A stretch of DNA of 64,000 bases. Origin: an uncultured Planctomycetia bacterium. Its GTDB lineage: Bacteria > Planctomycetota > MHYJ01 > WSZJ01. Shown here one piece after another: positions 14,682 through 61,322 of the stretch. Where the stretch lies: positions 67,470-131,469 of the forward strand of contig CAZPWT010000005.1 of NCBI GenBank assembly GCA_964590435.1, given 5' to 3'. The translations under genes and the position numbers were made by a program. The stretch's first letter is position 1. Each line of letters opens with the position of its first letter. The notes under the pieces are model-generated. The model did not search any database. It was not told the origin of the DNA and worked only from the letters and a program-made list of their open reading frames with translations.

Positions 14682-14695
14682 CCGGGGGCAGGTCG

Positions 14696-14851
14696 CCGCA
14701 TCCTTTTTGATCCTTTCTTATCCGTGACCCCGCCTTTCGTATCGCCGTTCATCCCGTCACTCATCCAGCTTTCGGAAACCGGATGAAAGACGGATTCAAC
14801 GGCGATAAGAACGACTTGGTCACAGATTGAAAAGGATGAAAAAGGATGCGG
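14696..14851. repeat. ~155-bp imperfect palindrome (~75-nt arms, ~80 % identity) occupying the top6B-top6A intercistronic gap
   Basis: Left arm is ccgcatcctttttgatcctttcttatccgtgacc...tatcgccgttcatcccgtcactcatccagctttcgg. Right arm, reverse-complemented, is ccgcatcctttttcatccttttcaatctgtgacc...tatcgccgttgaatccgtctttcatccggttt. There are internal direct repeats (tcctttttgatcctttc; gaaaaggatgaaaaaggatg). Confidence 0.8.
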
Positions 14852-14889
14852 CAGGCGGGGACGAAACATCCATTCCTTGAGGGGCTGCC

Positions 14890-23389: not shown

Positions 23390-23938
23390 TCAGATCGACT
23401 TGCGCACCACCGAAGTCCCCGCGACTGGCTTGAACCCCGCGTCCAGGAACAGCTTCTCCGGCCCCGTCCACACCTCCCCGGCCTCGTGCTCCCCCGCCAC
23501 AGGGTACGCCTCGACCTCCTTCACCCCCATCCGCTGCAGGTGCTCCATCGAAATCGCCAGCAGCACCCGCGCATACCCCTGCCGCCGCTTCTCCGGCGCC
23601 ACCAGCAGGCAGTTGATGCACCACAGGTCCTCCGGCCCCGGCGGCGGCTTCAGCTTCTCCACCAGCTTCGGGAAATTCTTCCGCGGCCCGAACTGGCACC
23701 AGCCGACCGGCGCTTCGTCCTCGTAGAGCAGCATGCCCGTGTCGCCCTGAAGCGCGATCCGGTCGCACTTCTGCTCGCGCAGCTTCGCCTTGTCCGCCTT
23801 CGCCCAGTCGTCGTTGGTGCCCGGAAAGTGCCAGTACATGCACCAGCACCCGCCGCAATCGGCGCGGTCGTGGAACTTGAAGAAGTCCTCCGCGAACTCG
23901 GGCTGCAGCGCACGGGCCCAGAGGTGGGGTTCGGGCAT
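23390..23938 (-). CDS. GNAT-family N-acetyltransferase
   Basis: [17 protein letters not shown] (motif A acetyl-CoA loop); 182 aa. Confidence 0.65.
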
Positions 23939-26968: not shown

Positions 26969-27420
26969 CGCCCGCCTCCCCCGCCGCCGCCCTCGGGCGC
27001 CGCGTCGTCTTCCTTCAGGAGCCGGTACCACTGCGCCTGCGAGACGCGCTGCGTCCCGTCGGGGAGCTGCTGCGTCACCTTGACCGTGATCTTCCACATC
27101 TCGCGCGGATGGTCGTCGTCCACCTTCTCGATCGCGTCCATCGTGACCTTCTCGGTCAGCCGCTCCCATGAGGCGGTCGGCTCTTCCTCGAACGTCCCCG
27201 ACTCGGTCCCCTCCTTCACGTCGTCGATCTTCACCTCTTCGTAGTCGCCGACCTTCTGCTGCAGCAGCCCCCACGACGTCCGGAGCTGCTTCGCCTGCGT
27301 CACGTGCTCGATCGCGCGCGTCCGCATGTACAGCAGCGCGAAGACCGTCGTCGACACGATCGCCAGCGCGAGCATGACCTCGAGCAGGGTGAACCCGGCG
27401 TCGCGGCGGATGCGGATCAT
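26965..27420 (-). CDS. gspI: Type II secretion minor pseudopilin GspI-like
   Basis: MIRIRRDAGFTLLEVMLALAIVSTTVFAL; ~151 aa; ATGA overlap with gspJ. Confidence 0.7.
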   Translation of the reverse strand: MIRIRRDAGFTLLEVMLALAIVSTTVFALLYMRTRAIEHVTQAKQLRTSWGLLQQKVGDYEEVKIDDVKEGTESGTFEEEPTASWERLTEKVTMDAIEKVDDDHPREMWKITVKVTQQLPDGTQRVSQAQWYRLLKEDDAAPEGGGGGGGR

Positions 27421-28013
27421 TCGGCCGCCGCCTCGAGCGAGACCGGGTCGACGTGCCCTTCCTTCAGGTCCACGAACCCCGTCACCGGGCTCGCCACGAT
27501 CGTGAACTTCGAGTTGTCCTCCTCGCCCGTGATCCAGATCGTGTGGCTCCGGATCGAGCCGTACGGCGTGCACTCCACCGTCACCGGCATCACCTCCGCC
27601 GCCTGCTCCGCGCTCCACACGATCTTCTCGAACTTCACCCCGTCCGGGAGCTTCCGCTCCATCGTCCGCACCCACTTGTACTCCGCGTCCTTGAACGCGT
27701 TCTCCGCCGTGTCCGCAGGCTCTTCCTCGTCCCCCGACTGGTTCACCTTCTCCGGCGACAGGATCCAGTACGTCTTGTTCGGCACGTCGTACTGGATGTA
27801 GTGCGGCATGCCGGTGCTCATGGCGGAAGCGCGGGCCAGGCGCAGCTCGGAGGCGATTTCGCGCACGCAGGAGCGGACCCTGTAGCGCGGCAGGAGATTG
27901 TCGATGCGCCCCACAGTCACGAGCAGCAGGACGCCCATGATCACGAGCACGACCGACAGCTCGATCAGCGTGTACCCGCCCTGCCGGCCGGCGGAACGGC
28001 GGAATGCGCGCAT
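27417..28013 (-). CDS. gspH: Type II secretion minor pseudopilin GspH-like
   Basis: GGYTLIELSVVLVIMGVLLLVTVG prepilin N-terminus; 198 aa; ATGA overlap with gspI. Confidence 0.7.
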   Translation of the reverse strand: MRAFRRSAGRQGGYTLIELSVVLVIMGVLLLVTVGRIDNLLPRYRVRSCVREIASELRLARASAMSTGMPHYIQYDVPNKTYWILSPEKVNQSGDEEEPADTAENAFKDAEYKWVRTMERKLPDGVKFEKIVWSAEQAAEVMPVTVECTPYGSIRSHTIWITGEEDNSKFTIVASPVTGFVDLKEGHVDPVSLEAAAE

Positions 28014-28032
28014 GGCGGTGCCCTCGGGGGCT

Positions 28033-28485
28033 CTACTTCTTCTGCTCGTCGTCCATCGTCCAGTAGCTCAGGTCGGCGTCGAACCCCTCGCCCCCCTGCT
28101 GGTTGTCCGCGCCGTACGCGATGATGTCGAACTCTTTGCCGTTGTCCGCGGGCTTCTTGAAGATGTAATCCGAACCCCACGGATCCTTCGGCACCTTCTC
28201 CAGGTACCCGCCCTCCGGCCAGTCCTTCGCGAACGACGGCCGGTTCACCAGGTCCTCCATCGCGTCCGGGTACCGGTTCTGCTCCATCTTGAACAGCTTC
28301 ACCTGGTCCGCGATGTGCTTGATGTCGCCCTTCGCCCGCGTCACCTTCGCCTTGTCGGCGCGCGACACCAGCACGGGCGTCACGGCGGCGGCCAGCACCC
28401 CGATGATCACCAGCACGATCATCAGTTCCATCAGCGTGAAGCCGCTGTTGGCGCGGCGGATATTGCGGCGGTCGCGGCGAAGCAT
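28033..28485 (-). CDS. gspG: Type II secretion major pseudopilin GspG
   Basis: NSGFTLMELMIVLVIIGVLAAAVTP; conserved DPWGSDY box; 150 aa; perfect RBS AGGAGG 6 nt upstream. Confidence 0.88.
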   Translation of the reverse strand: MLRRDRRNIRRANSGFTLMELMIVLVIIGVLAAAVTPVLVSRADKAKVTRAKGDIKHIADQVKLFKMEQNRYPDAMEDLVNRPSFAKDWPEGGYLEKVPKDPWGSDYIFKKPADNGKEFDIIAYGADNQQGGEGFDADLSYWTMDDEQKK

Positions 28486-28663
28486 GAATCCTCCTGGTTA
28501 CTGCGGTTGACCCGTCATTGTACGCCCGCTCCGTCCCGCGGGCCTCTGGAGATTCAACGAGCGGCGCGCGGGGACGTTGGGTGGGAAGCGGATTTTCCTG
28601 GAGGAACCGTTGGCGGGCGAAATGCGCGCACTCGGTCGAGAGCCCCTTCCAATCCCACTCAAC

Positions 28664-28700
28664 CTTCGACTTTCGACCTTCGACGCATTCTTCGACGCCT
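28664..28700. repeat. GTCGAAGG-family repeat copy between gspF and gspG
   Basis: ccttcgactttcgaccttcgacgcattcttcgacgcc: the reverse-complement form of the GTCGAAGG units, with a short internal inverted repeat (gtcgaagaatgcgtcgaag). Confidence 0.65.
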
Positions 28701-28703
28701 TCC

Positions 28704-29930
28704 CTACATGTTCGACAGATCCAGGATCGGCAGGAGCACCGCCATCACGATGAACCCGACCACGACCGCCATCACCACGATCATGATCGGCTCGATCAGG
28801 CTCGTGACCTTCTGCGTCGTCAGCTCCATCTCCTCGTCGTACGACTGCGACACCTTCCGAAGCATCTGCTCCAGCTGCCCCGATTCCTCGCCGATCGCGA
28901 CCATGTAGCAGACCGTCGGCGGGAAGAGCTTCGATTGCTTGAGCGGCGCGCTGATGTCCGAGCCTTCCATGACGCGGCCGCGGACCTTGGCGATGACCTC
29001 GGCCAGGACGACGTTGCCCATGATGCGCTCGGTGATGGAGAGCGCTTCCATGACGGGCAACCCGGATTCCAGCAGCGTGGCGAGAGTGGAGGCGAAGCGG
29101 GAGATGGCGGCCTTGCGGAAGAGTTCGCCGAGGGCGGGGACGCGGAGGATGAAGCCGTCCCAGGCGCGGCGGCCGTTGGTGGTGTTGGTGAAGAGCTTGA
29201 AGGCGATCCAGGCGGCGACGAGGCCGCCGAGGAGGAACGGCCAGTAGCCGCGGAGGATGTTGGTGATGGTGACGAGGATGACGGTGGGGAGGGGCATCGC
29301 GATCTTCTGCTTCTCGAGCACGTCGAGGATGCGGGGGACGACGACGCCGAGGAGGAAGGTGACGACGCCGACGCCGACGACGCACATGACGAGGGGGTAG
29401 GTGAGGGCGGCCATGACCTTGCCGGCGAGGCGGTTCTGCTGGTGCATGTAGTCGGCGAGGCGGGTGAGGATCTGGTCGAGGCTGCCGGAGGCTTCGCCGG
29501 AGCGGACCATGTTGACGTAGAGGTCGCCGAAGTAGGCGGGGTGGTTGGCGAGGGCGTCGGCGAAGGTGGAGCCCTGGCCGATGCGTTCGCGGACGTCGCG
29601 CATGACGGCGTTGATCTTCGCGTTGCCGGTCTGCTCGATGATGGCCTTCATGGCCTCGTTGAGCGGGGTGCCGGCCCCGAGGAGGGTGGCGAGCTGGCGC
29701 GTGACGAGGGCGATCTCGATGGGGCTCTTGCGCTGCGCGAACTTCGGCAGGAACGCCATCCGCTTCTTCTGGGCCTCGGCCTTGACGCCCTGGACGACGG
29801 CGTCGAGCTGCGTGACGTGGAGGTTCTGCATCCGCAGCTTCGAGCGGGCCTCGCGCGGGGAATCGGCATCGATGACGCCGATCGCGGCGTCGCCGGATTC
29901 CTTGATGGCTTTGTAGCTGAAGACGGGCAT
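28704..29930 (-). CDS. gspF: Type II secretion inner-membrane platform protein GspF
   Basis: 408 aa; duplicated GspF/PilC cytoplasmic domains (QLATLLGAGTPL ... TLATLLESGLPV) and three TM segments. Confidence 0.88.
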   Translation of the reverse strand: MPVFSYKAIKESGDAAIGVIDADSPREARSKLRMQNLHVTQLDAVVQGVKAEAQKKRMAFLPKFAQRKSPIEIALVTRQLATLLGAGTPLNEAMKAIIEQTGNAKINAVMRDVRERIGQGSTFADALANHPAYFGDLYVNMVRSGEASGSLDQILTRLADYMHQQNRLAGKVMAALTYPLVMCVVGVGVVTFLLGVVVPRILDVLEKQKIAMPLPTVILVTITNILRGYWPFLLGGLVAAWIAFKLFTNTTNGRRAWDGFILRVPALGELFRKAAISRFASTLATLLESGLPVMEALSITERIMGNVVLAEVIAKVRGRVMEGSDISAPLKQSKLFPPTVCYMVAIGEESGQLEQMLRKVSQSYDEEMELTTQKVTSLIEPIMIVVMAVVVGFIVMAVLLPILDLSNM

Positions 29931-29953
29931 GCGGTTGGGGCGGGCTTTGCCTT

Positions 29954-30053
29954 TTGAAAGACGTCGAAGGTCTAAGGTCGAAGGTTAACCGCGTCCGAAC
30001 GGGAGCCGGCATTGCTCGGGCCGGCCTTCGACTTTCGACCTTCGACCTTCGAC
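29954..30053. repeat. GTCGAAGG-family inverted repeat between gspE and gspF
   Basis: tgaaagacgtcgaaggtctaaggtcgaagg ... ccttcgactttcgaccttcgaccttcgacg (30-nt arms, 40-nt spacer). Confidence 0.8.
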
Positions 30054-30057
30054 GCCG

Positions 30058-31764
30058 TCATACAACGTCCATCTGCGTCACCCGGATGACTTCCTCGATC
30101 GTCGTCCTTCCTTCCAGCACCTTCAGCGCCCCGTCCATCCGGAGCGTCCTCAGGCCCACCTTCACGGCGTCCTGCTTGATGAGCGTCGAGCTGACCTTCG
30201 AGACCACCTGGTCGCGGACGTGGTCGGTGATCGGCAGGATCTCGTAGATGCCGGTGCGGTCGTGATACCCCGTGCCGAGGCACCGGTCGCAGCCGCGGCC
30301 CTTCCAGAGCGTCATCTTCGGACAGCGCTCGGGGGAGAGGCCGATCGAGAAGAGGTCCTCGGGGGTCACGGGCTGCGGCTCCTTGCAGCCGGGGCAGATG
30401 AGGCGGACGAGGCGCTGGGCGATGACGCCGATCAGGGACGACGCGACGAGGTACGGCTCGACGCCGAGGTCGAGCAGTCGCGTGATGGCGCCGGCGGCGT
30501 CGTTCGTGTGGAGGGTGCTGAACACGAGGTGGCCCGTGAGCGACGACTGGATCGCGATGTCGGCGGTTTCGCCGTCGCGGATTTCGCCGACCATGATGAT
30601 GTTCGGGTCCTGGCGCACGATCGACCTCAGCCCCGTCGCGAACGTCAGCCCCTTCTTCGGCGAAACCTCGATCTGGCTGATCCCCTGGATGTGGTATTCG
30701 ACCGGGTCCTCGATCGTGATCACGTTTTTCGCGGTCGAATTGATCGTCTTCAGCGCCGAGTACAGCGTCGTGGACTTCCCCGACCCCGTCGGCCCCGTCA
30801 CGAGAAGGACCCCGTGCGAGCACTTCACCAGCTTGCTCATCGTCCCGTACTGCATCTCGTCGAGGCCCAGCTCGCGCAGGTCGAGCAGGCGGCCGCTCTT
30901 GTCGAGCAACCGCATGACGATGCGCTCGCCGTTCGACGTCGGCACGCTCGAGATACGCACGTCCACGTCGTTGTCGCCCACCTTGATCGTCGCGCGGCCG
31001 TCCTGCGGCAGCCGCCGCTCCGCGATGTCCATCTTCCCCATGATCTTGATGCGGCTGATGATCGCGTCCTGGATCTTCTTCGGCGGCGTCATCATGTCGT
31101 ACAGGATGCCGTCGATGCGGTACCGCACCTGCAGCTTCTCCTCGTACGGCTGGATGTGGATGTCGCTGGCGCGCATCTTCAGCGCCTGGAACATGATCAT
31201 GTTCACCAGCTTGATGATCGGCGCCTTGTTCGCCATGTCGAGGAGGTCGTGCCCCTCCTCGAGCTCGCGCGCCAGCCCGGCCATCTCGTCGTCCTCGAGG
31301 TCCTCCAGCATCTCGTCGACGACGTCCATCTTCTTCTGGTACGCCTTGTTGATCAGCGCCGTGATCTCGCTCTTCGGCGCCAGCACGATCGTCACCGTCT
31401 TCCCCACCATCAGCGCCAGCTCGTCGAGCGGGTGGAAGTCGAACGGGTTGCACGTCACCACGCGGATCGCCCCGTTCTCCTCGCCGATCCCCACCAGGTT
31501 GTGGCTCCGCGCGAACTGCACCGGCACCGCTTCCACGAACGCCGCCGGCACTTCCGCGTCCCCCAGCCGGTCCATCAGCGGCGCCGCAAGGGCCTTCGAG
31601 AACGCCTTCAGCATCTGCTTCTCGTTCAGGAACCCCCGGGTCAGCAGCACCCGGTCGATCGGTTCACGCGACTCCGTGGAAACGGCGAAGGCCTCGTCCA
31701 CCTTCGTGTCGGCGAGGCCGCCGTCCTCCACCAGCGCTTTGCGGAACCGCTCGAGCAGCAGCAT
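30058..31764 (-). CDS. gspE: Type II secretion ATPase GspE
   Basis: Walker A LLVTGPTGSGKSTTLYSAL; Asp/His boxes; tetracysteine CPGCK...CDRCLGTG zinc motif. Confidence 0.92.
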   Translation of the reverse strand: MLLLERFRKALVEDGGLADTKVDEAFAVSTESREPIDRVLLTRGFLNEKQMLKAFSKALAAPLMDRLGDAEVPAAFVEAVPVQFARSHNLVGIGEENGAIRVVTCNPFDFHPLDELALMVGKTVTIVLAPKSEITALINKAYQKKMDVVDEMLEDLEDDEMAGLARELEEGHDLLDMANKAPIIKLVNMIMFQALKMRASDIHIQPYEEKLQVRYRIDGILYDMMTPPKKIQDAIISRIKIMGKMDIAERRLPQDGRATIKVGDNDVDVRISSVPTSNGERIVMRLLDKSGRLLDLRELGLDEMQYGTMSKLVKCSHGVLLVTGPTGSGKSTTLYSALKTINSTAKNVITIEDPVEYHIQGISQIEVSPKKGLTFATGLRSIVRQDPNIIMVGEIRDGETADIAIQSSLTGHLVFSTLHTNDAAGAITRLLDLGVEPYLVASSLIGVIAQRLVRLICPGCKEPQPVTPEDLFSIGLSPERCPKMTLWKGRGCDRCLGTGYHDRTGIYEILPITDHVRDQVVSKVSSTLIKQDAVKVGLRTLRMDGALKVLEGRTTIEEVIRVTQMDVV

Positions 31765-33854
31765 TACTTCTTCTCCCCGCCGGAACCCTTCTTGAACGGG
31801 CTGTGGAACTCAAACAGGTCCGCCGAGTTCGGCTCGAACTGCCCCAGCATGTGCTTGCCGACCCACTTCTTCGACAGCCGGAAGATCGAGTTCTGCTTCG
31901 ACAGCGTCAGGCGCTTGAAGTCGGTGAAGTCGGGGTCGCTGAGGATGATCGGGGTGATGAAAAGGTACAGGGTGACCTTGGTGCCGTCGCGGACGGTGCG
32001 CTGGAAGAGCTGCCCGAGGAGGGGGATGTCCTCGAGGATCGGGATACCGGTGGTGGTCTCGCTGATCTGGTCGCTCACGAGGCCGCCGATGACGACGGTG
32101 TAGGTGTTGGGGAGCGTGACCTTGGTGATGACGGAGCGGTTCGTGATGGGTGGCGGCACCGTGGAATCCGCCGAGGGGCGGGCCTGGAACTGGGAGACCG
32201 TGAGATCGACCTCGAGCTGCAGGTAGTTGTCGGCAGAGATGTGCGGCGTGATCTTGAGCGTGATGCCCGCGGACGTCGTGCTGCCGCTTCCCGCGGTCAC
32301 GACGCCTGTCGTGGTCGTCGTGGTGACGGTGGTCACGACCTCGGTCAGCGTGAGGGTCGCGGCCTCGTTGTCGTTCGTGGTCACCTGCGGGAGGGAAAGG
32401 ACGTTGATCTTGCGCTTGGCGCTCATGGCGTGGAGCAGGACGGGGAGCTTCCCGGCCGCGCCACGGATGAGGCCCGTCGTGAGGCCCGGGAGGCCGTCGT
32501 TGGGGACCTTGATGTCCGGGATGCTGTCACCGTCGGTGTCGGTCAGGACGCCGAGGCCGAAGTTCGCGTTGGCGAAGCCGCGCGTCCGGCCGTCCGCCGG
32601 GTTGGCGGCCGCCGCCAGCTCGAACCCGAGGTCGAACTGGTCGTTGTCGTTGACCTCGAAGATCGCCGCCTCGATGACCACCTGCGGGCGGCGCTTGTCC
32701 AGCTCGGCGATGAAGACCTCCATCGCGTCCCAGACCTCGGGGGTGGCGACGACGAGAAGAGCGTTGTTCTGCAGGTCCGCCGTGATGGACACCTGGACCT
32801 GCTGGTTCGGCGGCGTCGCGGTCCCGACGGCGGCGTCCGCGCCCCGCGCCGGCTGGTTCGCCCCGCCGCGCGGCTGCGATGTGTTGCTCGTCCCGCCACC
32901 GAAGATCGACTGCAGGACCGTCGCCAGCGTTTCCGCCCTCGCATGCTTGAGCCGGTACACGTGCAGGTTCGTCGGCGAGCGCTCCGGCCGGATGTCGAGC
33001 TTCATGATCATGTCCTTGATCTGCACCATGCGGTCGGGCAGCGCCAGGACGATGAGCGAGTTCGTGCGGAAGTCCGACCCGATCGACACCTGCTCCTGCT
33101 GCGGCACCGGAACGCCGGGACGCGGCGGCTGGGCGCGCTGAAGCGTCTGGACGAGCTGGTTGAGCTTCGGCTCGAGCTCCGTGGCGCTCGCGAACCGCAG
33201 CGAGATCACCTCGAGCAGCACGTCCGGCTGCTTGCGGTCGATCATCGCGATGATCAACTGGATGCGCTTCACGTTGATCGCGTAGTCCGTGATGATGATG
33301 GCGTTGAGCGTTTCGCTGGCGAGGACGTTGCGCGGGTCGGACAGCAGGGCCTGCGCCGGGGCGAGGATGTCGCGCGCGCTGGCGTACTTGAGCGCGATCA
33401 CCGCCGTGACCATCTGGTCGCGCGACAGCAGCTTGTCGGCCGCCTCGCCGGGCACGAACGGCACGCCGTTCTTGGAGCTTTCCTCGCGCTTCACGATCGT
33501 GATGACCTCGATCGTCGGCTTGCCGCGCTCGATCTCGAGCTGCTTCGGCACGAGCGCGAGCTGCATGTTGGACAGGACCGACTCGAACAGCAGGAACACG
33601 CCGCTCTCCGGCACCTGCATCGCCCGCGACAGGTTCACCGGCGGCTTCGCCTTCAGCGCTTCCTTGTCGTAGATGAACGCCTTCCCGGTCAGGTTCGAGA
33701 CCATCACGATCAGGTTCTCGATCGTGACGCCGTTCCAGTCGACCTCGATCATCTGCTCGGGCTTCTCCGGCTCCTTCGGCGGCTCGGGGGCCTGCGCGGA
33801 AGCCACGTTCGCCAGCAAGCCGACCAGCGAGGCCACGGCCAGGTAACGCTTCAT
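31764..33854 (-). CDS. gspD: Type II secretion outer-membrane secretin GspD
   Basis: Signal peptide MKRYLAVASLVGLLANVASA; N0 domain (VDWNGVTIENLIVMVSNLTGKAFIYD...VNLSRAMQVPESGVFLLFESVLSNMQLALV); C-terminal secretin domain (VVIGGLVSDQISETTTGIPILEDIPLLGQLFQRT). TAATG overlap with gspE. Confidence 0.9.
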   Translation of the reverse strand: MKRYLAVASLVGLLANVASAQAPEPPKEPEKPEQMIEVDWNGVTIENLIVMVSNLTGKAFIYDKEALKAKPPVNLSRAMQVPESGVFLLFESVLSNMQLALVPKQLEIERGKPTIEVITIVKREESSKNGVPFVPGEAADKLLSRDQMVTAVIALKYASARDILAPAQALLSDPRNVLASETLNAIIITDYAINVKRIQLIIAMIDRKQPDVLLEVISLRFASATELEPKLNQLVQTLQRAQPPRPGVPVPQQEQVSIGSDFRTNSLIVLALPDRMVQIKDMIMKLDIRPERSPTNLHVYRLKHARAETLATVLQSIFGGGTSNTSQPRGGANQPARGADAAVGTATPPNQQVQVSITADLQNNALLVVATPEVWDAMEVFIAELDKRRPQVVIEAAIFEVNDNDQFDLGFELAAAANPADGRTRGFANANFGLGVLTDTDGDSIPDIKVPNDGLPGLTTGLIRGAAGKLPVLLHAMSAKRKINVLSLPQVTTNDNEAATLTLTEVVTTVTTTTTTGVVTAGSGSTTSAGITLKITPHISADNYLQLEVDLTVSQFQARPSADSTVPPPITNRSVITKVTLPNTYTVVIGGLVSDQISETTTGIPILEDIPLLGQLFQRTVRDGTKVTLYLFITPIILSDPDFTDFKRLTLSKQNSIFRLSKKWVGKHMLGQFEPNSADLFEFHSPFKKGSGGEKK

Positions 33855-34609
33855 TTGTTGGTCCCTTTGTCGATCTTGAACCGGAGGTTGAGGGGAAGGA
33901 CGAGCTCGCCGTTCTCGATCACCAGCTTCTGCCGCTGCAGCTCCGGCGCTTCCAGGACGCCGAAGTCCAGCACGCGCTTCTCACCGTTGCATTCGTACTC
34001 GAGGATCGGTTCGCCCTTGTCGGTGTAGCCGAGGAGGCGGATGCGGACTTCGGGAAGGGGGATGCGGGCGTCGAGGCCGGCGGCGGCGGGGGCCTCGGGG
34101 AGGCGCCACGGGGCGATGGTCGCGGTATCGACGGGGACCGGGGGGACGGGAAGGCCGCCCGAGGTCACGGAAGAGCGTTCTCCGGCGCGGACGGTCACGT
34201 TTCCCTGGCCGCCGGTGAGGAGGACCGTGCCCTCGACGACTTCGACCGAGAGCCGGCGGCCGCGCGACGGCAGGCGCGGCGCGGTCGACTCCTTGCGCGT
34301 GAACGGCACCAGCTTCCACGCGCCGTCCTTCGACGGCACCAGCGTGATCGACTGCGTCAGCTCGAGCGTCACGCCGAACGCGAGGAACACTTCCTCCGGC
34401 GTCCCGTTCTTCACGAACGTCAGCGTCTTCCCTTCCAGCATCGCCGGCGTGGACTCAAACTTCCGCCCCGTCGCCTGCTCCACGTCCTTCAGCGCTTCGG
34501 CCAGCGGCCGGTCGCGCCTGTCGACGCTGACCCGCCCGCCCGGCTCGCCGGCGACCATGATCCCGCCCGCGAGCGCCGCCGCCGCCACCAGTCGCAGCAT
34601 CGTTTTCAT
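33851..34609 (-). CDS. Secreted STN-like (secretin/TonB N-terminal) domain protein; possible GspC-analogue or FecR partner
   Basis: Start MKTMLRLVAAAALAGG at 34609 (ATGA overlap with the anti-sigma stop); LAEALKDVEQATGRKFESTPAMLEGKTLTF resembles an STN/N0 fold; ATGA overlap with the gspD start. Confidence 0.55.
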   Translation of the reverse strand: MKTMLRLVAAAALAGGIMVAGEPGGRVSVDRRDRPLAEALKDVEQATGRKFESTPAMLEGKTLTFVKNGTPEEVFLAFGVTLELTQSITLVPSKDGAWKLVPFTRKESTAPRLPSRGRRLSVEVVEGTVLLTGGQGNVTVRAGERSSVTSGGLPVPPVPVDTATIAPWRLPEAPAAAGLDARIPLPEVRIRLLGYTDKGEPILEYECNGEKRVLDFGVLEAPELQRQKLVIENGELVLPLNLRFKIDKGTNK

Positions 34610-35301
34610 CAGCGGTACTCCAGGTGGAATTTGGTCCCGATGACTTCGATCGACCCCTCGCGTTCCGCCGACTCGAACCGCAGCCGGCCCTTGTCGCGCG
34701 GCGTCACCTCGGCCCAGAGCTCGCCGTACACCAGCATCACGCTCGGCGCCGCCAGGTCCGACCGGTTGATCATGATCTGCGACCCGTCCGCCAGCACGAT
34801 CAGGTCCCGCGCCCCGGACCGGAACCACACGCGCCCGCCGTTCGTCAGCACGCGGTCCCCCATCCGGATCGTCGTCCCCGTCGCCAGCGGCTCCCAGGTG
34901 GAACCGTCGGCCTTCATGAGAAGCGCCTCTCCGCGGACGTCCTCGGCCTTGAGCTCGTACGCCGGCGCGGCGCGGCCGATGCGGCCGGTCGCGACGCCCC
35001 ACGTCCCGAAGACCAGGAACAGCACGGCGGCGGCGAGCCCGAAGCGGAACCCGGAGTGGCCGCGCGGCTTGACGGCGCGCGATTCGTCGCCGGACGCCGC
35101 GGCCATCGCCGCCACGACGCGCGTCCGCCGCGTCGCGCTCGGCTCCGCCGCCACGGGCAGCTTCTCCGCGATGCGCAGCGTCCTCTCGAGATGCGCCCGC
35201 TCCGCGCGGCACCCCTCGCAGCCCTTCAAATGCTCCACCAGCGCGTCCCGTTCGGCGCCTTCAAGGTCGCCGAGGACCATCGCCGGCAGCAGCTTTTTCA
35301 T
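34609..35301 (-). CDS. Anti-sigma factor: N-terminal zinc-finger anti-sigma domain, TM helix, periplasmic FecR-like domain
   Basis: MKKLLPAMVLGDLEGAERDALVEHLKGCEGCRAERAHL (HxxxCxxC zf-HC2 type); TM FGLAAAVLFLVFGTWGV; C-terminal GDRVLTNGGRVWFRSGARDLIVLADGSQIMINRSDL (FecR-like). Confidence 0.75.
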   Translation of the reverse strand: MKKLLPAMVLGDLEGAERDALVEHLKGCEGCRAERAHLERTLRIAEKLPVAAEPSATRRTRVVAAMAAASGDESRAVKPRGHSGFRFGLAAAVLFLVFGTWGVATGRIGRAAPAYELKAEDVRGEALLMKADGSTWEPLATGTTIRMGDRVLTNGGRVWFRSGARDLIVLADGSQIMINRSDLAAPSVMLVYGELWAEVTPRDKGRLRFESAEREGSIEVIGTKFHLEYR

Positions 35302-35312
35302 CTCTACGCAGC

Positions 35313-35915
35313 TCACAGCGCCGCCTCCGCTTCTCCGCCCTGCCCGGCACGGACCAGTTCGCCCAGCGCCTGCATCGCCTCGTGCACCCGGAATTTCGCC
35401 GTCCCGACCGGGCAGTCCGTGATTTCCGCGATCTCCTTGTAGGACAGGCTGTGGTAGACGCGGAGGATCAGGGCTTCCTTCTTCACGGGCGGCAGTTGCG
35501 ACACGCATTCCCGCACCCGCAGCTCTTCCTCCGTCAGCTCGGCGCGGTCCTCGGGGGCCAGCCCGCCGTCGCGCAGCACGTCCTGCAGGTACAGCACCTT
35601 CCCGCCTTCCTCGCCCACGGGCGAGTCCATCGACGTCATCCGGACCTTCTTCACGCGCTTGATGTGGTCGAGGCACAGGTTGCGCGCGATCGTGTACAGC
35701 CACGTCGAGAACGCCCCCTCCGGCCGGTACGTCCTCAGGTTCTTCAGCACCCGCAGGAATGTCTCCTGGAACAGATCCTCCGCCAGCGCCCGGTCGTCAA
35801 CGTACCGCACGATGAACTGGATCAGCGGCCGTTCGAAGCGCTCCACCAGCTCGCGGAACGCGGCGTTGTCACCGCGCTCGCAGCGCTTGAGGAGGTCGCG
35901 TTCTTCCGGGCTCAT
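35313..35915 (-). CDS. ECF-subfamily sigma-70 factor
   Basis: Region 2 DLFQETFLRVLKNLRTY / STWLYTIARNLCLD; region 4 SYKEIAEITDCPVGTAKFRVHEA; 200 aa. Confidence 0.88.
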   Translation of the reverse strand: MSPEERDLLKRCERGDNAAFRELVERFERPLIQFIVRYVDDRALAEDLFQETFLRVLKNLRTYRPEGAFSTWLYTIARNLCLDHIKRVKKVRMTSMDSPVGEEGGKVLYLQDVLRDGGLAPEDRAELTEEELRVRECVSQLPPVKKEALILRVYHSLSYKEIAEITDCPVGTAKFRVHEAMQALGELVRAGQGGEAEAAL

Positions 35916-35989
35916 CGGGGGGCTCCGCTGGGGACCGAGGTTTAACGAGCGGGACTGGAAGGAGTTGGGGAATTCGGCGAAACGGGAGC

Positions 35990-36651
35990 CTATCGCGCGC
36001 AGCGGGGATACGGGCTGGAAAAGGGGGGAAGCGCCGCATGCGCGTCCCGAGCGGGATCGGGCGTGGCCACGGGGTGGTCCTCCACCTGCAGGAGTTCGAC
36101 GAGCGCCCGCCGCACCGCGTGCGCCTGCGACTCGGGGCCTGCGACCACCATGAAGGGAAGATCGAGGCGGGACCAGTCGTTCGCAGTGTCCTCAAGGAGG
36201 AACGGGGTGGAACCCTTGCTGGCCTCGGGCCGTCGGACCAATCGGGTAAGTGTCACAGAGGGCGCTGCGGGCCTGCGAATGAAAACCTGCGCGCAGGCAA
36301 GCTCATTGAATGCCAGGACCGATTCCAGCAGTGTATAGACCCCGGATGAGGGCACGTTCACGACGCGGGAGAAATTCACAGGAGGTTTTTGCTCGACTTG
36401 CCGTCGGTCGTACACGAGGACCCGGCCCGTATGAAGGGCCACTCCGTTCACAACTTCGGTCAGTCCGTGCCCGTTCCAATCGATGCGTACCAGGTCGCCT
36501 TCAACCGGTCTAGCCAGCCAATCGGGCACGGCCGGCGACTCGGAAGGCGGCGGGACAGCCGGTTCCGGGCGGCTGACGCAACCGGAACCGAAGCTCAAAA
36601 CCACAGCGAGGAACATCGCCGTCCGGGTCCAGCATGATGCGAGGATCGTCA
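35990..36651 (-). CDS. Lipoprotein carrying a secretin-N0-like domain paralogous to the GspD N-terminus
   Basis: Lipobox MTILASCWTRTAMFLAVVLSFGSGC. The segment LVRIDWNGHGLTEVVNGVALHTGRVLVYDRRQVEQKPPVNFSRVVNVPSSGVYTLLESVLAFNELA aligns by eye at ~50 % identity with GspD MIEVDWNGVTIENLIVMVSNLTGKAFIYDKEALKAKPPVNLSRAMQVPESGVFLLFESVLSNMQLA. Confidence 0.6.
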
Positions 36652-36778
36652 TGCCCTTCCAACGACGCAGCCCGATTTCGGTTGAGAGGCGCCCCTGCAG
36701 AAACACAAAAGGCGCCGCAGGCCGTTGCCCGCAGCGCCTTTCCACCGTTTCCACAATCCACGAACCACGAACCACCAA

Positions 36779-37627
36779 CTACTTCTTCGGCGGCTCCTCC
36801 GCCTTCTTCGGCTCCTCGACCTTCACGCCGAAGAACTTCAGCTTCCCGCGCGCCGTCTTCGCTTCTTCCGAGTCCGGCCAGCGATCGTTCACTTTCTTCC
36901 ACAGCTCGATCGCTTCCTTGCGCTGGTTCTTCTTGGAAAGGTCCGCGGCCTGGGCCATCAGGTCCTTGCGCTCCTTCTCTTCGGCGGCGATCCGCACCTT
37001 CTCGACTGCTTCCTGCGCCTTCACCGCGTCTTCTTTCGCCTTGGCGAGCCCCTCTTCCAGTTTCTTCTGCGCCTCGTCGTACGCCGCCTTGAAGTCGGCG
37101 TTCCCCTCGAGCTGCTTGTACCAGTCGTCCGCGGCCTTGCGCTCGGGGCGGCCTTCGAACCAGTGGCGCAGGTAAACCATCTTGGAAACGGCCGTCTTGA
37201 AGTCCCCGGCCTGCGCCGCGACGGCCATGCCGTTGTGGAGGCCGTAGCAGACTTCCTCGGCGAAAGCGTCGTCATGCGGCTTGCCCTTGCACTCGACCAG
37301 CTTGTTCCCCATCGGGTCCACCAGCATGAGGCGGGGGAAGCTGTCGACGCCGTACTGTTTCGCCGCGGCGGAACCTTCTTTCTCGGCGTTGAGGTGAACG
37401 CACACGAACGCCTTCAGGAACTCCTGGACCTCGGTGCGCGGATACGTATCCGTATCCATCTTCTTGCAGTACTTTCACCAGTCCGTGTAGAAGTCGAGAT
37501 ACATCAGTTTGCCTTCAAGTCCGGCCTTGACCTTCGCCTCCTCGAACGACTTCTCCCAGGCGACGCCGCCGGCGTGGGCGCTGGTGGCGGCAAGAAGGGC
37601 AAAGACGGCTGACGCCAATCGTTTCAT
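36779..37627 (-). CDS. Secreted thioredoxin-fold (DsbD-gamma/TlpA-like) protein with an in-frame TGA replacing the first Cys of CxxC; candidate selenoprotein (UxxC)
   Basis: Read across the TGA at 37475-37477, the frame gives MKRLASAVFALLAATSAHAGG...KLMYLDFYTDW-U-KYCKKMDTDTYPRTEVQEFLKAFVCVHLNAEKEG...YGVDSFPRLMLVDPMGNK. This is the DLYADWCVACK.../...LLGLPT... thioredoxin pattern. The ORF track split it into 36779..37459 plus a cryptic upstream part. Confidence 0.65.
37438..37459 (-). other. Stem-loop 17 nt downstream of the in-frame UGA; candidate bacterial SECIS element
   Basis: mRNA ...UGA AAG UAC UGC AAG AAG AU-GGAUACG-GAUA-CGUAUCC-G: a 7-8 bp stem with a 4-nt loop. The spacing is compatible with bacterial SECIS positioning. 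Confidence 0.4.
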
Positions 37628-37685
37628 GGTCCGGCCTCCCTCGTTCGTGACTGGGATCGGACTCTATCCGAACGCGGGGACCGCT

Positions 37686-38423
37686 TCAACGCGGACCCGG
37701 CGGCGCGGGGTGCAGCCGCTCCTTCAGGTGCTTGAGGTCCGCCACGATCATGAAGCTGATGATCACGAGCAGGAACCACGAGCTGACGCGGCGGAAGGCG
37801 ACGTGCTGCCAGCCGCCGTGCTGGTTCGGGTAGAGGTAGGCCCCGAGGTACGTCGTGATGTTCTCGGCCAGCCAGACGAAGAAACCGATGAGGAAAAACG
37901 ACAGCGCGATCGGCATGAAGCGCCGCTTCTCCGTCACCGTGAACCAGACGCGCGCCTTCCAGAAGACCGCGACGACGAGCGCGCCGAGGATCCAGCGGAC
38001 GTCGGGGAGGAAGTGGCGCGTGAAGAAATTCGCGTAGATCGCCGCCGACAGCGGGACGCTGAGGAGGTAGCGCGGATAGCCGGTCAGCTCGAGCTTGAGG
38101 AGGCGCCACGCCTGGCACATGTAGCTGGCGACGGAGGCGTACATGAAGCCGCTGTAGAGCGGGACGGTGCGGATGCGGAAGTACGACGCCTCGGGATAGC
38201 TCCACTCCCCGATCCGCGGGTCGGTCTTGAAGACCTCGAGCGCCAGCCCGATGACGTGGAAGACGCAGATGACCTTGAGCTCGTCGAGCGTCTCGATGCG
38301 CGCCGCAACGAGCGCGACCTGGAGCGCCACCGCCGCCAGCAGGATGAAGTCGTACCGGGGCAGCGGCCCCAGCGGGATGTGCTTCGACGCGAACAGGATC
38401 ACGAAAAACGAGCCCGCAAACAC
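37686..38423 (-). CDS. Polytopic inner-membrane protein (possibly DUF817 family)
   Basis: Six-plus hydrophobic helices (FFVILFASKHIPLG, LLAAVALQVALVAA, VICVFHVIGLALEVF, LVVAVFWKARVWF, IALSFFLIGFFVWLAE, LLVIISFMIVADL). Confidence 0.5.
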   Translation of the reverse strand: MFAGSFFVILFASKHIPLGPLPRYDFILLAAVALQVALVAARIETLDELKVICVFHVIGLALEVFKTDPRIGEWSYPEASYFRIRTVPLYSGFMYASVASYMCQAWRLLKLELTGYPRYLLSVPLSAAIYANFFTRHFLPDVRWILGALVVAVFWKARVWFTVTEKRRFMPIALSFFLIGFFVWLAENITTYLGAYLYPNQHGGWQHVAFRRVSSWFLLVIISFMIVADLKHLKERLHPAPPGPR

Positions 38424-45487: not shown

Positions 45488-48400
45488 GTGAGCGACGAGC
45501 GGCGCGAGAGCGACCCACCGCCTGGTCCCCCGAGCCCGGGGCCGTCGGGCTACGACGCGACGATCCGCGCCGGCGCGGGATCGCCGCCGCCGTCCAGCGC
45601 CGTGGCCCCTTCGCAGGAGAAGGCCGAGGCCGCGCCGCAGCGGCTGGGGGGTTACCGGCTGCTGAAAAAGCTGGGAAGCGGCGGGATGGGGGCGATCTAT
45701 CTCGGCGTGCAGGAGTCCGTCGGGCGGCAGGTCGCGCTCAAGGTGCTGCCCGAGAGCGCCTTCCACGACGCGGACGCCGTGGCGCGCTTCCAGAGGGAAA
45801 TCCAGGTGCTGGGGCAGATGAGGCATCCTGGGATTTGCCCGGTGATGGACTCGGGGCTGGACGGGAAGACGCACTACTACGTGATGGAGTACATCCGCGG
45901 GATGGACGTGGCGCGGGTGCTGCGGCTGCAGCGTGTGGAGCCGCGGCGGGCGGCGGACATCGCGGCGCAGGTCGCACGGGCGCTGCAGTCGGCGCACGAC
46001 GCCGGAGTCATCCACCGCGACCTGAAGCCGCTGAACATCATGCTGACGCGCGGGGAGAAGCCGCGCGAGGCCGCCGGGGGGCGAAGCGAATCGACGCCGT
46101 TCGGGGGGGCGCTGAAGCGCTTCTTCTCGTGGGCGTCGATGTCGGGGTCGCGGGCGGCGGCGGCGCCGTCGGCGTCGCTGCCGGGGCTGGCGGCGGAATC
46201 GGCGGCGGAGGCGGGGATGCCGGCGCCGGAGTGGCGGGACCGGGCGGTGCTGATCGACTTCGGGCTGGCGCGCGACGGCGCGGCGGCGACGCACCTGACG
46301 GTGTCGGGGGCGATGATGGGAACGCCGGCGTACATGGCGCCGGAGCAGGCGCGCGGCGACCGGCGGGCGATCGGACCGGCGACGGACGTATACGGCCTCG
46401 GGGCGACGCTGTACGAGATGCTGACGCTGCGTCCGCCGTTCGGGGGGGAGACGATGGGAGAGGTGATCTCCCGCGTGGTGAACGAGGAGCCGGCGCCGGT
46501 CCGGTCGCTCAACCCGCTGGTGGACCGCGACCTGGAGACGATCGTCCAGAAAGCGATGGAGAAGGAGCCGGCGCGGCGGTACGCGAGCGCCGCGGCGATG
46601 GCGCAGGACCTCGAGCACTGGCTCGCGGGCGAGCCGATCCTGGCGCGAAGGGCGAGCGTCGCGTACCGGGTCCGGAAGCGGCTGCTGCGGAACAAGGCGG
46701 CCTCGGCGGCGATCGCGGCGGCGGTCCTGCTGGCGGCGGCGGGGATCTGGCAGACCTTCTCGCCGGGGGAGATCGTCGTCAGCGGGCGCGACCTCGAGGG
46801 CGCGACCCTGTTCGTCGATGGCGTCGCTTCCCCCGGCCGGAGCGCCCGCGTGTGGCCGGGCCGGCATGTCGTCAAGGTCACGCGGCCGGAGTTCGTGGAC
46901 TTCAGCGAGGACGTGGAGGTCTCGGCGCGGAAACAGACGGCGCTCGAGGTCGCGCTGATCTCGAGGTTCGGGTACGTCACGGTGAAATCCGAACCGCCGG
47001 GCGCGGAAGTCCGGGATCGCGACGTGCTGCTCGGCGTCACGCCGCTGGTCCGGTGCCGCGTCCCGACCGGCGAGCGCTTCATCGAGGTCCGGCTGCGCGA
47101 CTACGAGGCCTCGAGCTTCCCCGTGACGGTCCGGCCCGGCGACCTGAGCCCGGAGATCACGCGCCAGCTCCGCCACGAAACCGGCCTGCTGACGCTCACC
47201 TCCGACCCGCCGGAGCTCGGGATCGACCTGTACCCCGAGGGCGTCTCCAGGCCGATCATCGCCGCCGCACCCGCCGAGAAGTTTGCGCTTCCCACCGGCC
47301 GCTATCGCGTCCTCGCGCACGCGAGGAATCACTTCCCGCACGAATTTGCGCTGGAAGTGCGTGCCGGTGAAGAGGTGAAGCGGAACGTGACTTTGACGGC
47401 GCTGATGAGGTGGCGGACGACGGCGGACATGGTGTCGGAGGGAGTGGCGGCGGGGGACCTGAACGGGGACGGGCGGCCGGACCTGGTGGTGGCGAGCAAG
47501 ACGCCGGCGCGGATCCGTGCGCTGGACGGGCGGAACGGGGAGCTGATCTGGATCGCGAGGAAGCCTCCGCTGACGGCGAGCTATGGGTTGCCGTTGAATC
47601 TGAGCGACCTGGACGGGGACCTGGAGCCGGAGGTGGTGTATTCGGCCGGGGACCGGCTGGTGGCGCTGGACGGGCGGACAGGCGTGGAGAAACGGGCGTG
47701 GGAGGTGCCGGGGCTGAGGGATGCGGTGGACTGGGGGGACCTGGACGGGGACGGGGTGCCGGATTTCGTGGCGCACACCGGGGGGCTCGTGCTGGCGCTG
47801 AGCGGCGCGGACGCGCACGTGCTGTGGTCGGTGCCGTCCAGCCCCAACCCGGCGTACTACCGGGGCGACATGGACGGCGATGGCAGGCCTGACGTCGGTA
47901 TGGCGACCGGCGACGCAGGGCTCCAGGCGATCGACGGGAAGACGGGCCAGGCGATCTGGCGCGTGCCCGGCTGGAATCGCGGCGGAGCGACGTGCTGCAT
48001 CGACGTCGACGGGGACGGCCGGGACGACCTCCTGACCGTGGACCGGGACAACGCCCCGACGGCGATCCGCGGAAGCGACGGGACGATCCTGTGGTCGGCG
48101 CCGAAGGATGACTACATCATGGTCTTCCCCCCGGTCGCGGCAGATCTCGAAGGCGACGGGACGCTGGAAGCGATCTTCTGCCGGGGGCCGCTCCTGGAGG
48201 TGCGCAACGCGCTGACCGGGAAACTCATCGTGTCGCACGACCTGGGCCCCGGGTGCAGCCCCGCGATCTACGACGTCGACGCGGACGGGCACAAAGACCT
48301 GATCATGGCCGGGGCCGGCACTCTCCTCGCGATGGACGCGCTCACCGGCCGGCGGCTCTGGCAGTTCGATTCGAACACCAGCGCCTCGATGGGCACTCCC

Positions 48401-61173: not shown

Positions 61174-61282
61174 CTGGATCATCCGGGGTCCCGAAGGAGG
61201 AGGCGAAAAGGGACGTGGGCTGGACGGATCATACCGGGGGGAGCGGGAGGAGGGAATGCGGGAGTTTGGACGGAAAAGACGA

Positions 61283-61322
61283 ATATTCAATAGTCAATAT
61301 TGAATATGAAATATTGAATGAT
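61283..61322. promoter_or_regulatory. AT-only repeat/palindrome cluster ~110 bp upstream of cdaA
   Basis: gaATATTCAATAgtcaaTATTGAATATgaaATATTGAATgatcg: an inverted pair ATATTCAATA / TATTGAATAT plus a third direct copy, within 70 % GC DNA. Confidence 0.55.

What the first reader, a model, noticed from the sequence alone, without database searches (positions are those of the whole stretch)
36779..37627. Thioredoxin-fold secreted protein with UGA at the first CxxC position; candidate UxxC selenoprotein split by the ORF track
Translating the minus strand upstream of ORF 36779..37459, across the single TGA at 37475-37477, gives a continuous protein. It begins with an SPI signal peptide (MKRLASAVFALLAATSAHAGG) and reads ...KLMYLDFYTDW-[TGA]-KYCKKMDTDTYPRTEVQEFLKAFVCVHLNAEKEG...YGVDSFPRLMLVDPMGNK. 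That is the DsbD-gamma/TlpA-like thioredoxin pattern (DxYADWCxxCK...LLxxxGLPT).

The stop falls exactly where the redox-active first Cys belongs, and the resolving Cys (KYC) is retained. This is the signature Cys-to-Sec arrangement, not a random nonsense mutation.

A 7-8 bp hairpin (GGAUACG-GAUA-CGUAUCC) begins 17 nt downstream of the UGA, compatible with a bacterial SECIS. If real, the organism has a selenocysteine insertion system and a periplasmic selenium-based thiol-disulfide oxidoreductase.
Basis: partly seen in the sequence, partly recalled or inferred. Interest (0 to 1): 0.78.

Follow-up and report, generated by a model that had tools for sequence, protein, structure and literature searches.

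The report
Split gene is a secreted selenoprotein
Two adjacent ORFs are really one gene for an exported thioredoxin-type redox protein whose catalytic cysteine is replaced by selenocysteine (encoded by UGA); it is a sound, so far mis-annotated example of a well-known kind of bacterial selenoprotein.

Summary
On the minus strand, 37627..36779 is one reading frame with a single TGA at codon 51 (37477..37475).

- **Homology.** The TGA sits in a Pfam Thioredoxin_7 domain that spans it. It aligns with the first Cys of DFYTDW-C-xx-C in every Cys homologue examined.
- **Conservation.** The TGA is kept in all 9 distinct orthologues (53-80% identity, dS about 1.1-1.2). It is also kept in three distant family members (29-44% identity) and in 9 independent read-set assemblies. 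Codons upstream of it are under purifying selection.
- **SECIS.** A 7-8 bp hairpin lies 17 nt downstream, loop GAUA/GGUA, 24 nt from UGA to loop, about -11 kcal/mol. It meets every criterion of the published bacterial SECIS model in 9/9 Sec genes and in 0/72 Cys homologues. It shows no third-position variation, uses rare GAT/TAT codons, and shows compensatory pair changes in distant members.
- **Genetic code.** TGA is an ordinary stop for about 18 of 50 window genes.

Not shown: selA/selB/selD/selC were not found in the window or fetched loci, and the rest of the genome could not be searched.

Public records call the gene a truncated hypothetical protein. No curated selenoprotein family model fits it. 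It is a new member of a known kind, of moderate interest.

The parts
36779..37627 (-). Complete selenoprotein gene: 282 codons (ATG 37627..37625, Sec-TGA at codon 51, stop TAG 36781..36779)
   Evidence: Single frame with one internal TGA. Orthologues are colinear over the whole length.
37684..37689 (-). Putative -35 hexamer TTGAAG (inferred)
   Evidence: A TTGnnn block is conserved in most orthologue upstream regions, 17 nt from the -10 element. It falls below the consensus scanner's threshold.
37661..37666 (-). Putative -10 hexamer TAGAGT (inferred)
   Evidence: TAnnnT is invariant in 9 aligned upstream regions.
37635..37640 (-). Shine-Dalgarno GGGAGG, 7 nt before the ATG
   Evidence: purine-rich GGAG-type blocks at the same place in most orthologues. 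No comparable site precedes the internal ATG at 37459.
37568..37627 (-). Signal peptide, codons 1-20 (MKRLASAVFALLAATSAHA|GG)
   Evidence: Read from the sequence. The AxA motif is kept in orthologues. Selection is relaxed here (pN/pS 0.67), as is typical of signal peptides. No predictor was run.
37313..37561 (-). Thioredoxin_7 (DsbD-gamma/DsbH-like) domain, residues 23-105
   Evidence: Pfam PF13899, 46.6 bits against a cutoff of 27. PDB 2KUC E = 3.8e-12, DsbD-gamma E = 7e-6. Fold of the Cys homologue P0019.
37475..37477 (-). UGA = selenocysteine codon 51
   Evidence: Conserved in 9/9 orthologues and 3 distant members. Aligns with the first Cys of CxxC.
37466..37477 (-). Redox motif U51-K-Y-C54
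   Evidence: C54 is invariant. In the P0019 model the equivalent Cys55 lies immediately before helix 56-65.
37439..37458 (-). SECIS hairpin: U-GGAUACG / GAUA / CGUAUCC-G. The 7 bp core is 37457..37440 and the loop is 37450..37447.
   Evidence: all bSECIS model criteria met. (no third-position variation, rare codons). (compensatory pairs).
37334..37336 (-). Codon for Pro98, the invariant proline at the position of the thioredoxin-fold cis-Pro loop
   Evidence: P98 is invariant in all 16 aligned Sec and Cys family members. The cis configuration is inferred from knowledge of the fold.
36782..37264 (-). C-terminal all-helical domain (residues about 122-282): TPR-like hairpins around a 56-residue helix, with a Lys/Glu-rich tail
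   Evidence: AlphaFold model of residues 57-282, pLDDT 80. Weak TPR/YbgF and YbbN matches.
36707..36742 (-). Intrinsic-terminator-like hairpin (16 pairs, 10 G-C) followed by a T run, 37 nt after the stop codon

Best explanation
This is one monocistronic gene for an exported thioredoxin-fold selenoprotein.

**Translation (inferred).** The ribosome starts at ATG 37627. At UGA codon 51, SelB with Sec-tRNA(Sec) is presumed to bind the hairpin 17 nt downstream (the SECIS). It then inserts selenocysteine instead of terminating.

**Export (inferred).** The signal peptide sends the protein across the inner membrane and is cut after Ala20.

**Product.** The mature protein is about 262 aa. It has a DsbD-gamma/DsbH-like Thioredoxin_7 domain with the redox centre U51-x-x-C54 and the conserved Pro98. 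An all-helical, TPR-like domain follows and probably binds partners or substrates.

**Chemistry (inferred from thioredoxin-fold and selenoprotein biochemistry).** The selenolate attacks a substrate disulfide or an oxidised thiol. Cys54 resolves the mixed Se-S intermediate into an intramolecular selenenylsulfide. A membrane electron donor of the DsbD/CcdA type, not identified here, would re-reduce it.

**What is shown and what is not.** Shown: gene structure, homology, conservation of the UGA, and the SECIS signature. Inferred: actual Sec insertion, export, the direction of electron flow and the substrates.
For: - **Continuous frame and domain.** The frame is continuous and a Thioredoxin_7 domain spans the TGA.
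- **Cys/Sec pairing.** The TGA aligns with the first Cys of CxxC in 14 aligned homologues and 72 genomic homologues.
- **TGA conservation.** It is conserved in 9 distinct orthologues (53-80% identity; dS 1.1-1.2 for the two most distant pairs). pN/pS is 0.24 for codons 21-50 upstream and 0.36 downstream.
- **Gene-call pattern.** All 18 close database homologues are annotated as N-terminally truncated proteins of 214-226 aa. In each of the eight orthologous contigs looked up, a 50-aa ORF lies just upstream.
- **Distant members.** L099 carries two tandem paralogues (UHFC and UHYC) and L101 carries UGPC. All have TGA at the same site.
- **bSECIS criteria.** The published model asks for a 3-9 nt loop, a 4-16 bp stem, a G in the first two loop positions, 16-37 nt from UGA to loop, and MFE <= -7.5 kcal/mol (PMC13188914). 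These are met in 9/9 Sec genes at an identical 24 nt spacing. They are met in 0/72 Cys homologues, including seven with at least 55% GC.
- **Synonymous constraint.** Third positions vary in 0 of 5 hairpin codons, against 221 of 268 columns elsewhere. GAT and TAT are used in 100% of hairpin Asp/Tyr codons, against 12% and 14% elsewhere.
- **Stem changes.** A-U to G.U at one pair within the clade. In distant members, U-A to A-U and A-U to G-C, which are compensatory.
- **Not a sequencing error.** Nine separate SRR assemblies carry the identical 50-aa ORF ending in TGA.
- **No code reassignment.** TGA ends 18 of 50 heuristic gene calls in the window.
- **Expression signals.** A Shine-Dalgarno site and a conserved -10 element precede the upstream ATG, and a strong terminator follows the gene.
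- **Phylum.** Selenocysteine decoding is already documented in Planctomycetes (PMC4807772).
Against: - No selA, selB, selD or tRNA-Sec was found in the 64 kb window. None was found in about 130 kb of orthologous flanks either. The rest of the genome could not be searched, so the decoding machinery is unverified.
- No second selenoprotein gene was seen in the window.
- In most members the second loop base is A, not the more usual G or U. This is still within the model.
- There is no experimental evidence of selenium incorporation.
- The folding energy of the wider 81-nt context is not exceptional (z = -1.3). Only the local hairpin stands out.
Confidence: 0.88

Rival explanations
1. The UGA is recoded or read through, but to an amino acid other than selenocysteine. 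Examples are Cys via a UCA-anticodon tRNA, or Trp by near-cognate reading. The hairpin would then act as a generic read-through stimulator.
For: The Sec machinery was not found in the accessible sequence. Everything else shown here (conserved UGA, hairpin, Cys homologues) would also fit Cys insertion at the UGA.
Against: The hairpin has the specific geometry of bacterial SECIS elements: small G-initiated loop, 24 nt spacing. One distant member has the classic GGU-type loop GGUCA. TGA is a normal stop elsewhere in the window. Sec decoding is known in the phylum. UxxC in thioredoxin folds is the commonest bacterial selenoprotein pattern.
Confidence: 0.05
2. There are two separate genes as annotated. 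One is a 50-aa secreted peptide ending at TGA. The other is an independent 226-aa protein starting at ATG 37459.
For: Gene callers and GenBank records annotate it this way. Met57 is conserved in all orthologues.
Against: The thioredoxin domain (residues 23-105) would be cut in two. The 226-aa product would lack strand 1, the active-site U, the resolving Cys54 and the signal peptide. No Shine-Dalgarno site precedes ATG 37459. The frame relation and the 15-nt gap are kept exactly in the eight orthologues with DNA and in 3 distant members. Full-length Cys homologues are single proteins.
Confidence: 0.03
3. It is a pseudogene (a nonsense mutation of a Cys codon) or an assembly or sequencing error.
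For: A single-base change from TGC or TGT gives TGA.
Against: The same TGA is found in 9 independent read-set assemblies. It is also found in all orthologues despite synonymous divergence near saturation, with pN/pS 0.24-0.36 on both sides.
Confidence: 0.01

Closest known systems
Thioredoxin_7 family: C-terminal (gamma) domain of DsbD, Chlamydia DsbH, and B. thetaiotaomicron putative disulfide isomerase 2KUC
   Same: Same fold and the same D-x-[YF]-x-x-W-C-x-x-C-K active-site context. All are extracytoplasmic. Pfam PF13899 scores above its cutoff. PDB 2KUC E = 3.8e-12 and DsbD-gamma E = 7e-6. DsbD-gamma and DsbH are the top structural matches of the Cys homologue.
   Different: Selenocysteine replaces the attacking Cys. 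It is a stand-alone secreted protein, not fused to the DsbD membrane domain. It carries an extra helical, TPR-like C-terminal domain of about 160 residues. It scores far below the full-length DsbD and DsbH family cutoffs.
Known thioredoxin-fold UxxC bacterial selenoproteins: thioredoxin, 'thiol:disulfide interchange protein' PF13098, DsbG-like, DsbA-like (inventory in PMC13188914)
   Same: Sec at the first position of the CxxC motif of a thioredoxin fold. Cys homologues are widespread and Sec forms sporadic. The SECIS lies just downstream of the UGA. The protein also matches PF13098 weakly (32 bits).
   Different: The best-fitting domain model is PF13899, and that inventory lists no UxxC family for it. 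The domain architecture (Trx7 plus helical domain) and the lineage are different. A direct comparison with the listed representatives was not possible.
Trx7/PDZ domain-containing (seleno)protein, NCBIfam NF041199
   Same: A Thioredoxin_7-domain selenoprotein.
   Different: The motif there is CxxU, so Sec is in the second position, and the partner domain is PDZ. The window protein scores 16.9 bits against a cutoff of 300.
CnoX/YbbN-type thioredoxin-TPR proteins (PDB 3QOU, 3QDN)
   Same: Two-domain layout: an N-terminal thioredoxin fold followed by TPR-like helices. This is the best whole-chain match for the fragment model (E = 0.028). It also matches the Cys homologue (E = 1e-5).
   Different: The similarity is weak (TM about 0.2-0.3). 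There is no Sec. From general knowledge, YbbN is cytoplasmic and E. coli YbbN has SxxC. This is an analogy of architecture, not membership.

Membership tests
Bacterial selenoprotein gene (UGA = Sec) | In-frame UGA conserved among orthologues, with protein-coding conservation on both sides | tested here: met
   9/9 orthologues and 3 distant members have TGA at the same codon. pN/pS is 0.24 upstream and 0.36 downstream.
Bacterial selenoprotein gene (UGA = Sec) | Cys-containing homologues whose Cys aligns with the UGA | tested here: met
   14/14 aligned homologues have Cys there. 72/72 genomic homologues have TGC or TGT. Same-architecture Cys forms exist with CEPC, CPHC and CHYC.
Bacterial selenoprotein gene (UGA = Sec) | [quoted passage not shown] | tested here: met
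   Criteria come from PMC13188914. Here the loop is GAUA/GGUA, the stem is 7-8 bp, the spacing is 24 nt and the energy is -9.6 to -11.2 kcal/mol. 9/9 Sec genes pass and 0/72 Cys genes pass. Compensatory pairs are seen in distant members.
Bacterial selenoprotein gene (UGA = Sec) | selA, selB, selD and tRNA-Sec present in the same genome | not testable with these tools
   None is present in the window or the fetched loci.
Bacterial selenoprotein gene (UGA = Sec) | Selenium found in the protein (75Se labelling or mass spectrometry) | not testable with these tools
   This requires an experiment.
Thioredoxin_7 (Pfam PF13899) | Score above the Pfam gathering threshold over the full model | tested here: met
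   46.6 bits against 27, model positions 1-83 of 83, with Cys substituted for U.
Thioredoxin_7 (Pfam PF13899) | Redox motif at the N-terminus of the first long helix, and a conserved cis-Pro loop | tested here: met
   In the P0019 model Cys55 precedes helix 56-65. Pro98 is invariant in the family alignment. The window protein itself could not be modelled across the U.
Trx7/PDZ (seleno)protein NF041199 | Score above the NCBIfam cutoff; CxxU motif; PDZ domain | tested here: not met
   16.9 bits against 300. The motif here is UxxC and there is no PDZ domain.
DsbD (NF001419), DsbH (NF043050) and selenoprotein TsoB (NF045694) | Score above the curated full-length cutoff | tested here: not met
   37.5 against 330, 30.6 against 190 and 37.1 against 805. 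Only the thioredoxin domain matches.

The most novel reading that the evidence does not exclude
This may be a selenoprotein family that has not yet been catalogued. Its members are exported Thioredoxin_7 proteins with a helical, TPR-like tail. The attacking residue switches between Sec, Cys and Ser across the family (UKYC/UGYC/UHFC/UHYC/UGPC, CEPC/CPHC/CHYC and SNAC). Some genomes carry tandem Sec paralogues. Close orthologues were seen only in uncultured Planctomycetota-type lineages. If so, it points to a selenium-dependent thiol-disulfide pathway in the periplasm of these bacteria.
Probability: 0.5. Interest if true: 0.45.

Novelty: new member of a known kind. Interest (0 to 1): 0.38.

Why it matters
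It corrects a systematic mis-annotation. GenBank records of at least three metagenome-assembled genomes list only a truncated 'hypothetical protein'. Every gene call examined splits the gene in two.

It adds an exported DsbD-gamma-like oxidoreductase to the bacterial selenoproteins. It also implies that this uncultured Planctomycetota clade decodes UGA as selenocysteine and needs selenium.

The family has natural Sec, Cys and Ser variants of one scaffold. That makes it a convenient system for asking what Sec buys in extracytoplasmic thiol-disulfide exchange. It does not change current understanding of Sec decoding.

Tried and rejected
- **Sec machinery search.** ARAGORN found no tRNA in the window or in 11 related loci. 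tblastn with E. coli SelA/SelB/SelD, taken from NC_000913, found nothing relevant in the window or any locus. Pfam scans of 40 window ORFs found no sel genes and no DsbD/CcdA. I ran no further search on SelD. Its hits could not have been tied to this genome.
- **Rfam.** No family reached its gathering score in the window.
- **Other selenoprotein genes.** The scan gave only two same-frame gene junctions that look like chance: window 23390 and L010 8138.
- **Structure of the read-through protein.** I modelled the 226-aa fragment and the Cys homologue P0019 instead.
- **Long-range RNA helix.** RNAalifold proposed outer helices around the hairpin with apparent covariation, between codon 52 (AAG/GGC) and codon 70 (TTC/GCG). 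I rejected this as evidence, because it reflects one split between two sub-clades and encloses a large internal loop.
- **Literature.** The supplement of the BSepDB paper is not held, so I could not check whether the family is listed there.
- **My own gene heuristic.** It produced three spurious small ORFs at 59331-60284. The real gene there is on the opposite strand.

Full report
**1. Observation**

Read on the minus strand, 37627..36779 is a single frame of 282 codons with exactly one internal stop. That stop is TGA at codon 51 (37477..37475), in the context ...GKLMYLDFYTDW-TGA-KYCKKMDTDTYPR. The mechanical ORF list splits it into a 50-aa ORF (37475..37627) and a 226-aa ORF (36779..37459). 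The hairpin GGAUACG-GAUA-CGUAUCC lies at 37457..37440 and begins 17 nt after the UGA. Alone it folds at -11.1 kcal/mol, with z = -4.3.

**2. What the protein is**

With Cys substituted for the stop, the protein matches Pfam Thioredoxin_7 end to end. The match covers residues 23-105 at 46.6 bits against a cutoff of 27, so the domain spans the TGA.

The nearest solved relatives by sequence are a Bacteroides putative disulfide isomerase (2KUC, E = 3.8e-12) and the C-terminal gamma domain of DsbD (E = 7e-6). NCBIfam gives only sub-threshold matches restricted to the thioredoxin domain. These are to DsbD, DsbH and two selenoprotein families, TsoB and Trx7/PDZ.

The read-through sequence itself could not be modelled. 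A model of the closest full-length Cys homologue, P0019 (pLDDT 93), shows a canonical thioredoxin fold. Its first Cys sits immediately before helix 56-65, and TPR-like helices follow. Its best structural matches are DsbD-gamma and DsbH. YbbN/CnoX matches over the whole chain. A model of residues 57-282 of the window protein (pLDDT 80) shows the rest of the thioredoxin fold. An all-helical domain with a 56-residue helix follows.

Pro98, at the position of the thioredoxin cis-Pro, is invariant in the family. The N-terminus has the layout of a type-I signal peptide with AHA|GG. This was read from the sequence and not run through a predictor.

**3. The TGA is conserved and sits on the catalytic Cys**

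A search of 5.8 billion proteins returned 18 close homologues (51-100% identity over the aligned part). Every one is annotated as a 214-226 aa protein starting just after the TGA. More distant homologues are full length and read DFYTDW-C-xx-C-K.

I looked up the contigs for eight orthologues and obtained DNA for seven of them. A genome-collection scan added one further distinct orthologue, L013. In every look-up a 50-aa ORF lies just upstream of the called gene, and in every locus with DNA the codon between the two is TGA. Counting the window, that makes 9 distinct sequences, at 53-80% amino-acid identity to the window.

Synonymous divergence is near saturation (dS about 1.1-1.2 for the two most distant pairs), yet the TGA is invariant. 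pN/pS is 0.24 for codons 21-50 upstream and 0.36 downstream. Both halves are therefore translated in this frame.

The TGA aligns with the first Cys of CxxC in 14 of 14 aligned homologues. In 72 further genomic homologues from many phyla the codon is TGC (45) or TGT (27).

Nine independent sequencing-run assemblies contain the identical 50-aa ORF ending in TGA, which excludes an assembly error. TGA terminates about 18 of 50 genes in the window, including the gene immediately upstream, so the code is not reassigned.

**4. The hairpin behaves as a SECIS**

A 2026 review gives the bacterial SECIS model (PMC13188914):
- a 3-9 nt apical loop;
- a 4-16 bp stem;
- a G in the first two loop positions;
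- 16-37 nt between the UGA and the loop;
- MFE <= -7.5 kcal/mol.

A script applying these criteria passed 9 of 9 Sec genes. All have a 7-8 bp stem, a GAUA or GGUA loop, 24 nt spacing and an energy of -9.6 to -11.2 kcal/mol. It passed 0 of 72 Cys homologues, including the seven whose local GC is at least 55%.

The five codons that form the hairpin (58-62) show no third-position variation. Elsewhere 221 of 268 columns vary. These codons use GAT and TAT throughout, although the genes otherwise use GAC (145:19) and TAC (67:11). Within the clade the only stem change is A-U to G.U.

**5. The family is wider than the clade**

A profile search of 1.84 billion cluster representatives found more members with the same C-terminal domain. 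Some are truncated at the same Met. Others are full length with CEPC, CPHC, CHYC or SNAC at the active site.

DNA for two of the truncated ones again shows TGA at the same position:
- L099 carries two tandem paralogues, with UHFC (44% identity to the window protein) and UHYC (32%).
- L101 carries UGPC (29%).

In L099a and L101 the hairpin keeps its place (23-24 nt from UGA to loop) and its G-initiated loop (GAUA, GGUCA). Its stem carries compensatory changes, U-A to A-U and A-U to G-C. The second L099 paralogue has a different downstream structure that I did not analyse further.

**6. Gene anatomy and context**

A Shine-Dalgarno site (GGGAGG, 37640..37635) precedes the ATG at 37627. A TAnnnT -10 element is invariant among orthologues, with a TTGnnn block 17 nt upstream of it. 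Nothing comparable precedes the internal ATG. A 16-pair terminator hairpin with a T run follows the stop codon. The gene therefore looks monocistronic.

The neighbours are a DUF817 membrane protein upstream and a 208-aa protein of unknown family downstream. An ECF sigma/anti-sigma pair and a type II secretion cluster follow. This order recurs in several orthologous loci. These genomes are closely related and the terminator separates the genes, so I draw no functional conclusion from the synteny.

Only two of the 185,579 GTDB species representatives carry an orthologue. Both are uncultured Planctomycetota, and one is labelled Candidatus Brocadiia.

**7. What could not be shown**

No selA, selB, selD or tRNA-Sec lies in the window or in the fetched flanks. 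The rest of the genome was out of reach. Complete Sec-insertion gene sets have been reported in several Planctomycetes (PMC4807772), so the trait is plausible in the phylum. For this organism it remains an inference. The direction of electron flow, the partners and the substrates are also inferred.

**8. Comparison with what is known, and verdict**

Thioredoxin-fold proteins with UxxC are the commonest kind of predicted bacterial selenoprotein (PMC1088965, PMC13188914). The evidence here is the standard set of criteria used in those studies, and all sequence-level criteria are met.

The protein is a member of Pfam Thioredoxin_7. It is not a member of the curated Trx7/PDZ, TsoB, DsbD or DsbH families. 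The 2026 inventory lists no UxxC family under PF13899. Public records annotate the gene as a truncated hypothetical protein.

I therefore rate it a new member of a known kind. It is a real and cleanly supported selenoprotein gene of moderate interest, not a surprise to specialists.

Noticed in passing
L099:2833-3681 and L099:3941-4723: A more distant organism (ENA ERZ27228609) carries two tandem paralogues of this family, each with an in-frame TGA at the active site (UHFC and UHYC). The second has a different downstream RNA structure whose loop does not begin with G.
   Followed up: partly
proteins P0037, P0041, P0043, P0045, P0047: Full-length relatives with the same helical C-terminal domain carry CEPC, CPHC, CHYC or SNAC at the active site. 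The family therefore has natural Sec, Cys and Ser variants of the attacking residue.
   Followed up: partly
window 27417-36616 (minus strand): Downstream of the selenoprotein gene lie a 208-aa protein with no family match, an ECF sigma factor and a zf-HC2 anti-sigma factor. A 252-aa unknown protein and a type II secretion cluster (secretin, GspE, GspF, pseudopilins) follow. The same order recurs in L001, L005, L006, L009 and L011.
   Followed up: partly
window 12729-15993 (plus strand): Adjacent genes for topoisomerase VI subunit B (Topo-VIb transducer plus HATPase) and subunit A (Spo11/Toprim). This type IIB topoisomerase is better known from archaea and plants.
   Followed up: no
window 37418-37477 (minus strand); alignment A3 columns 5-13 and 50-59: RNAalifold proposes outer helices around the SECIS hairpin with apparent covariation between codon 52 (AAG or GGC) and codon 70 (TTC or GCG). 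It may simply reflect one split between two sub-clades.
   Followed up: partly
window 45488-50611 (plus strand): A 1707-aa protein with an N-terminal Ser/Thr kinase domain, a PEGA domain and FG-GAP/PQQ-type beta-propellers. Kinase genes fused to FGE-sulfatase domains flank the orthologue in L005.
   Followed up: no
window 59294-61290 (minus strand): A diadenylate cyclase (DAC domain) gene lies at 60367-61290. Next to it and overlapping its 3' end is a 443-aa ORF (59294-60625) with no Pfam scan run. My composition heuristic wrongly called three small plus-strand ORFs here (59331-60284).
   Followed up: partly
window 23390-23392; L010:8138-8140: Two further TGA codons are flanked by coding-like sequence in the same frame on both sides. 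They are ordinary stops of one gene followed by the next gene in the same frame, and there is no Cys or redox motif nearby.
   Followed up: partly
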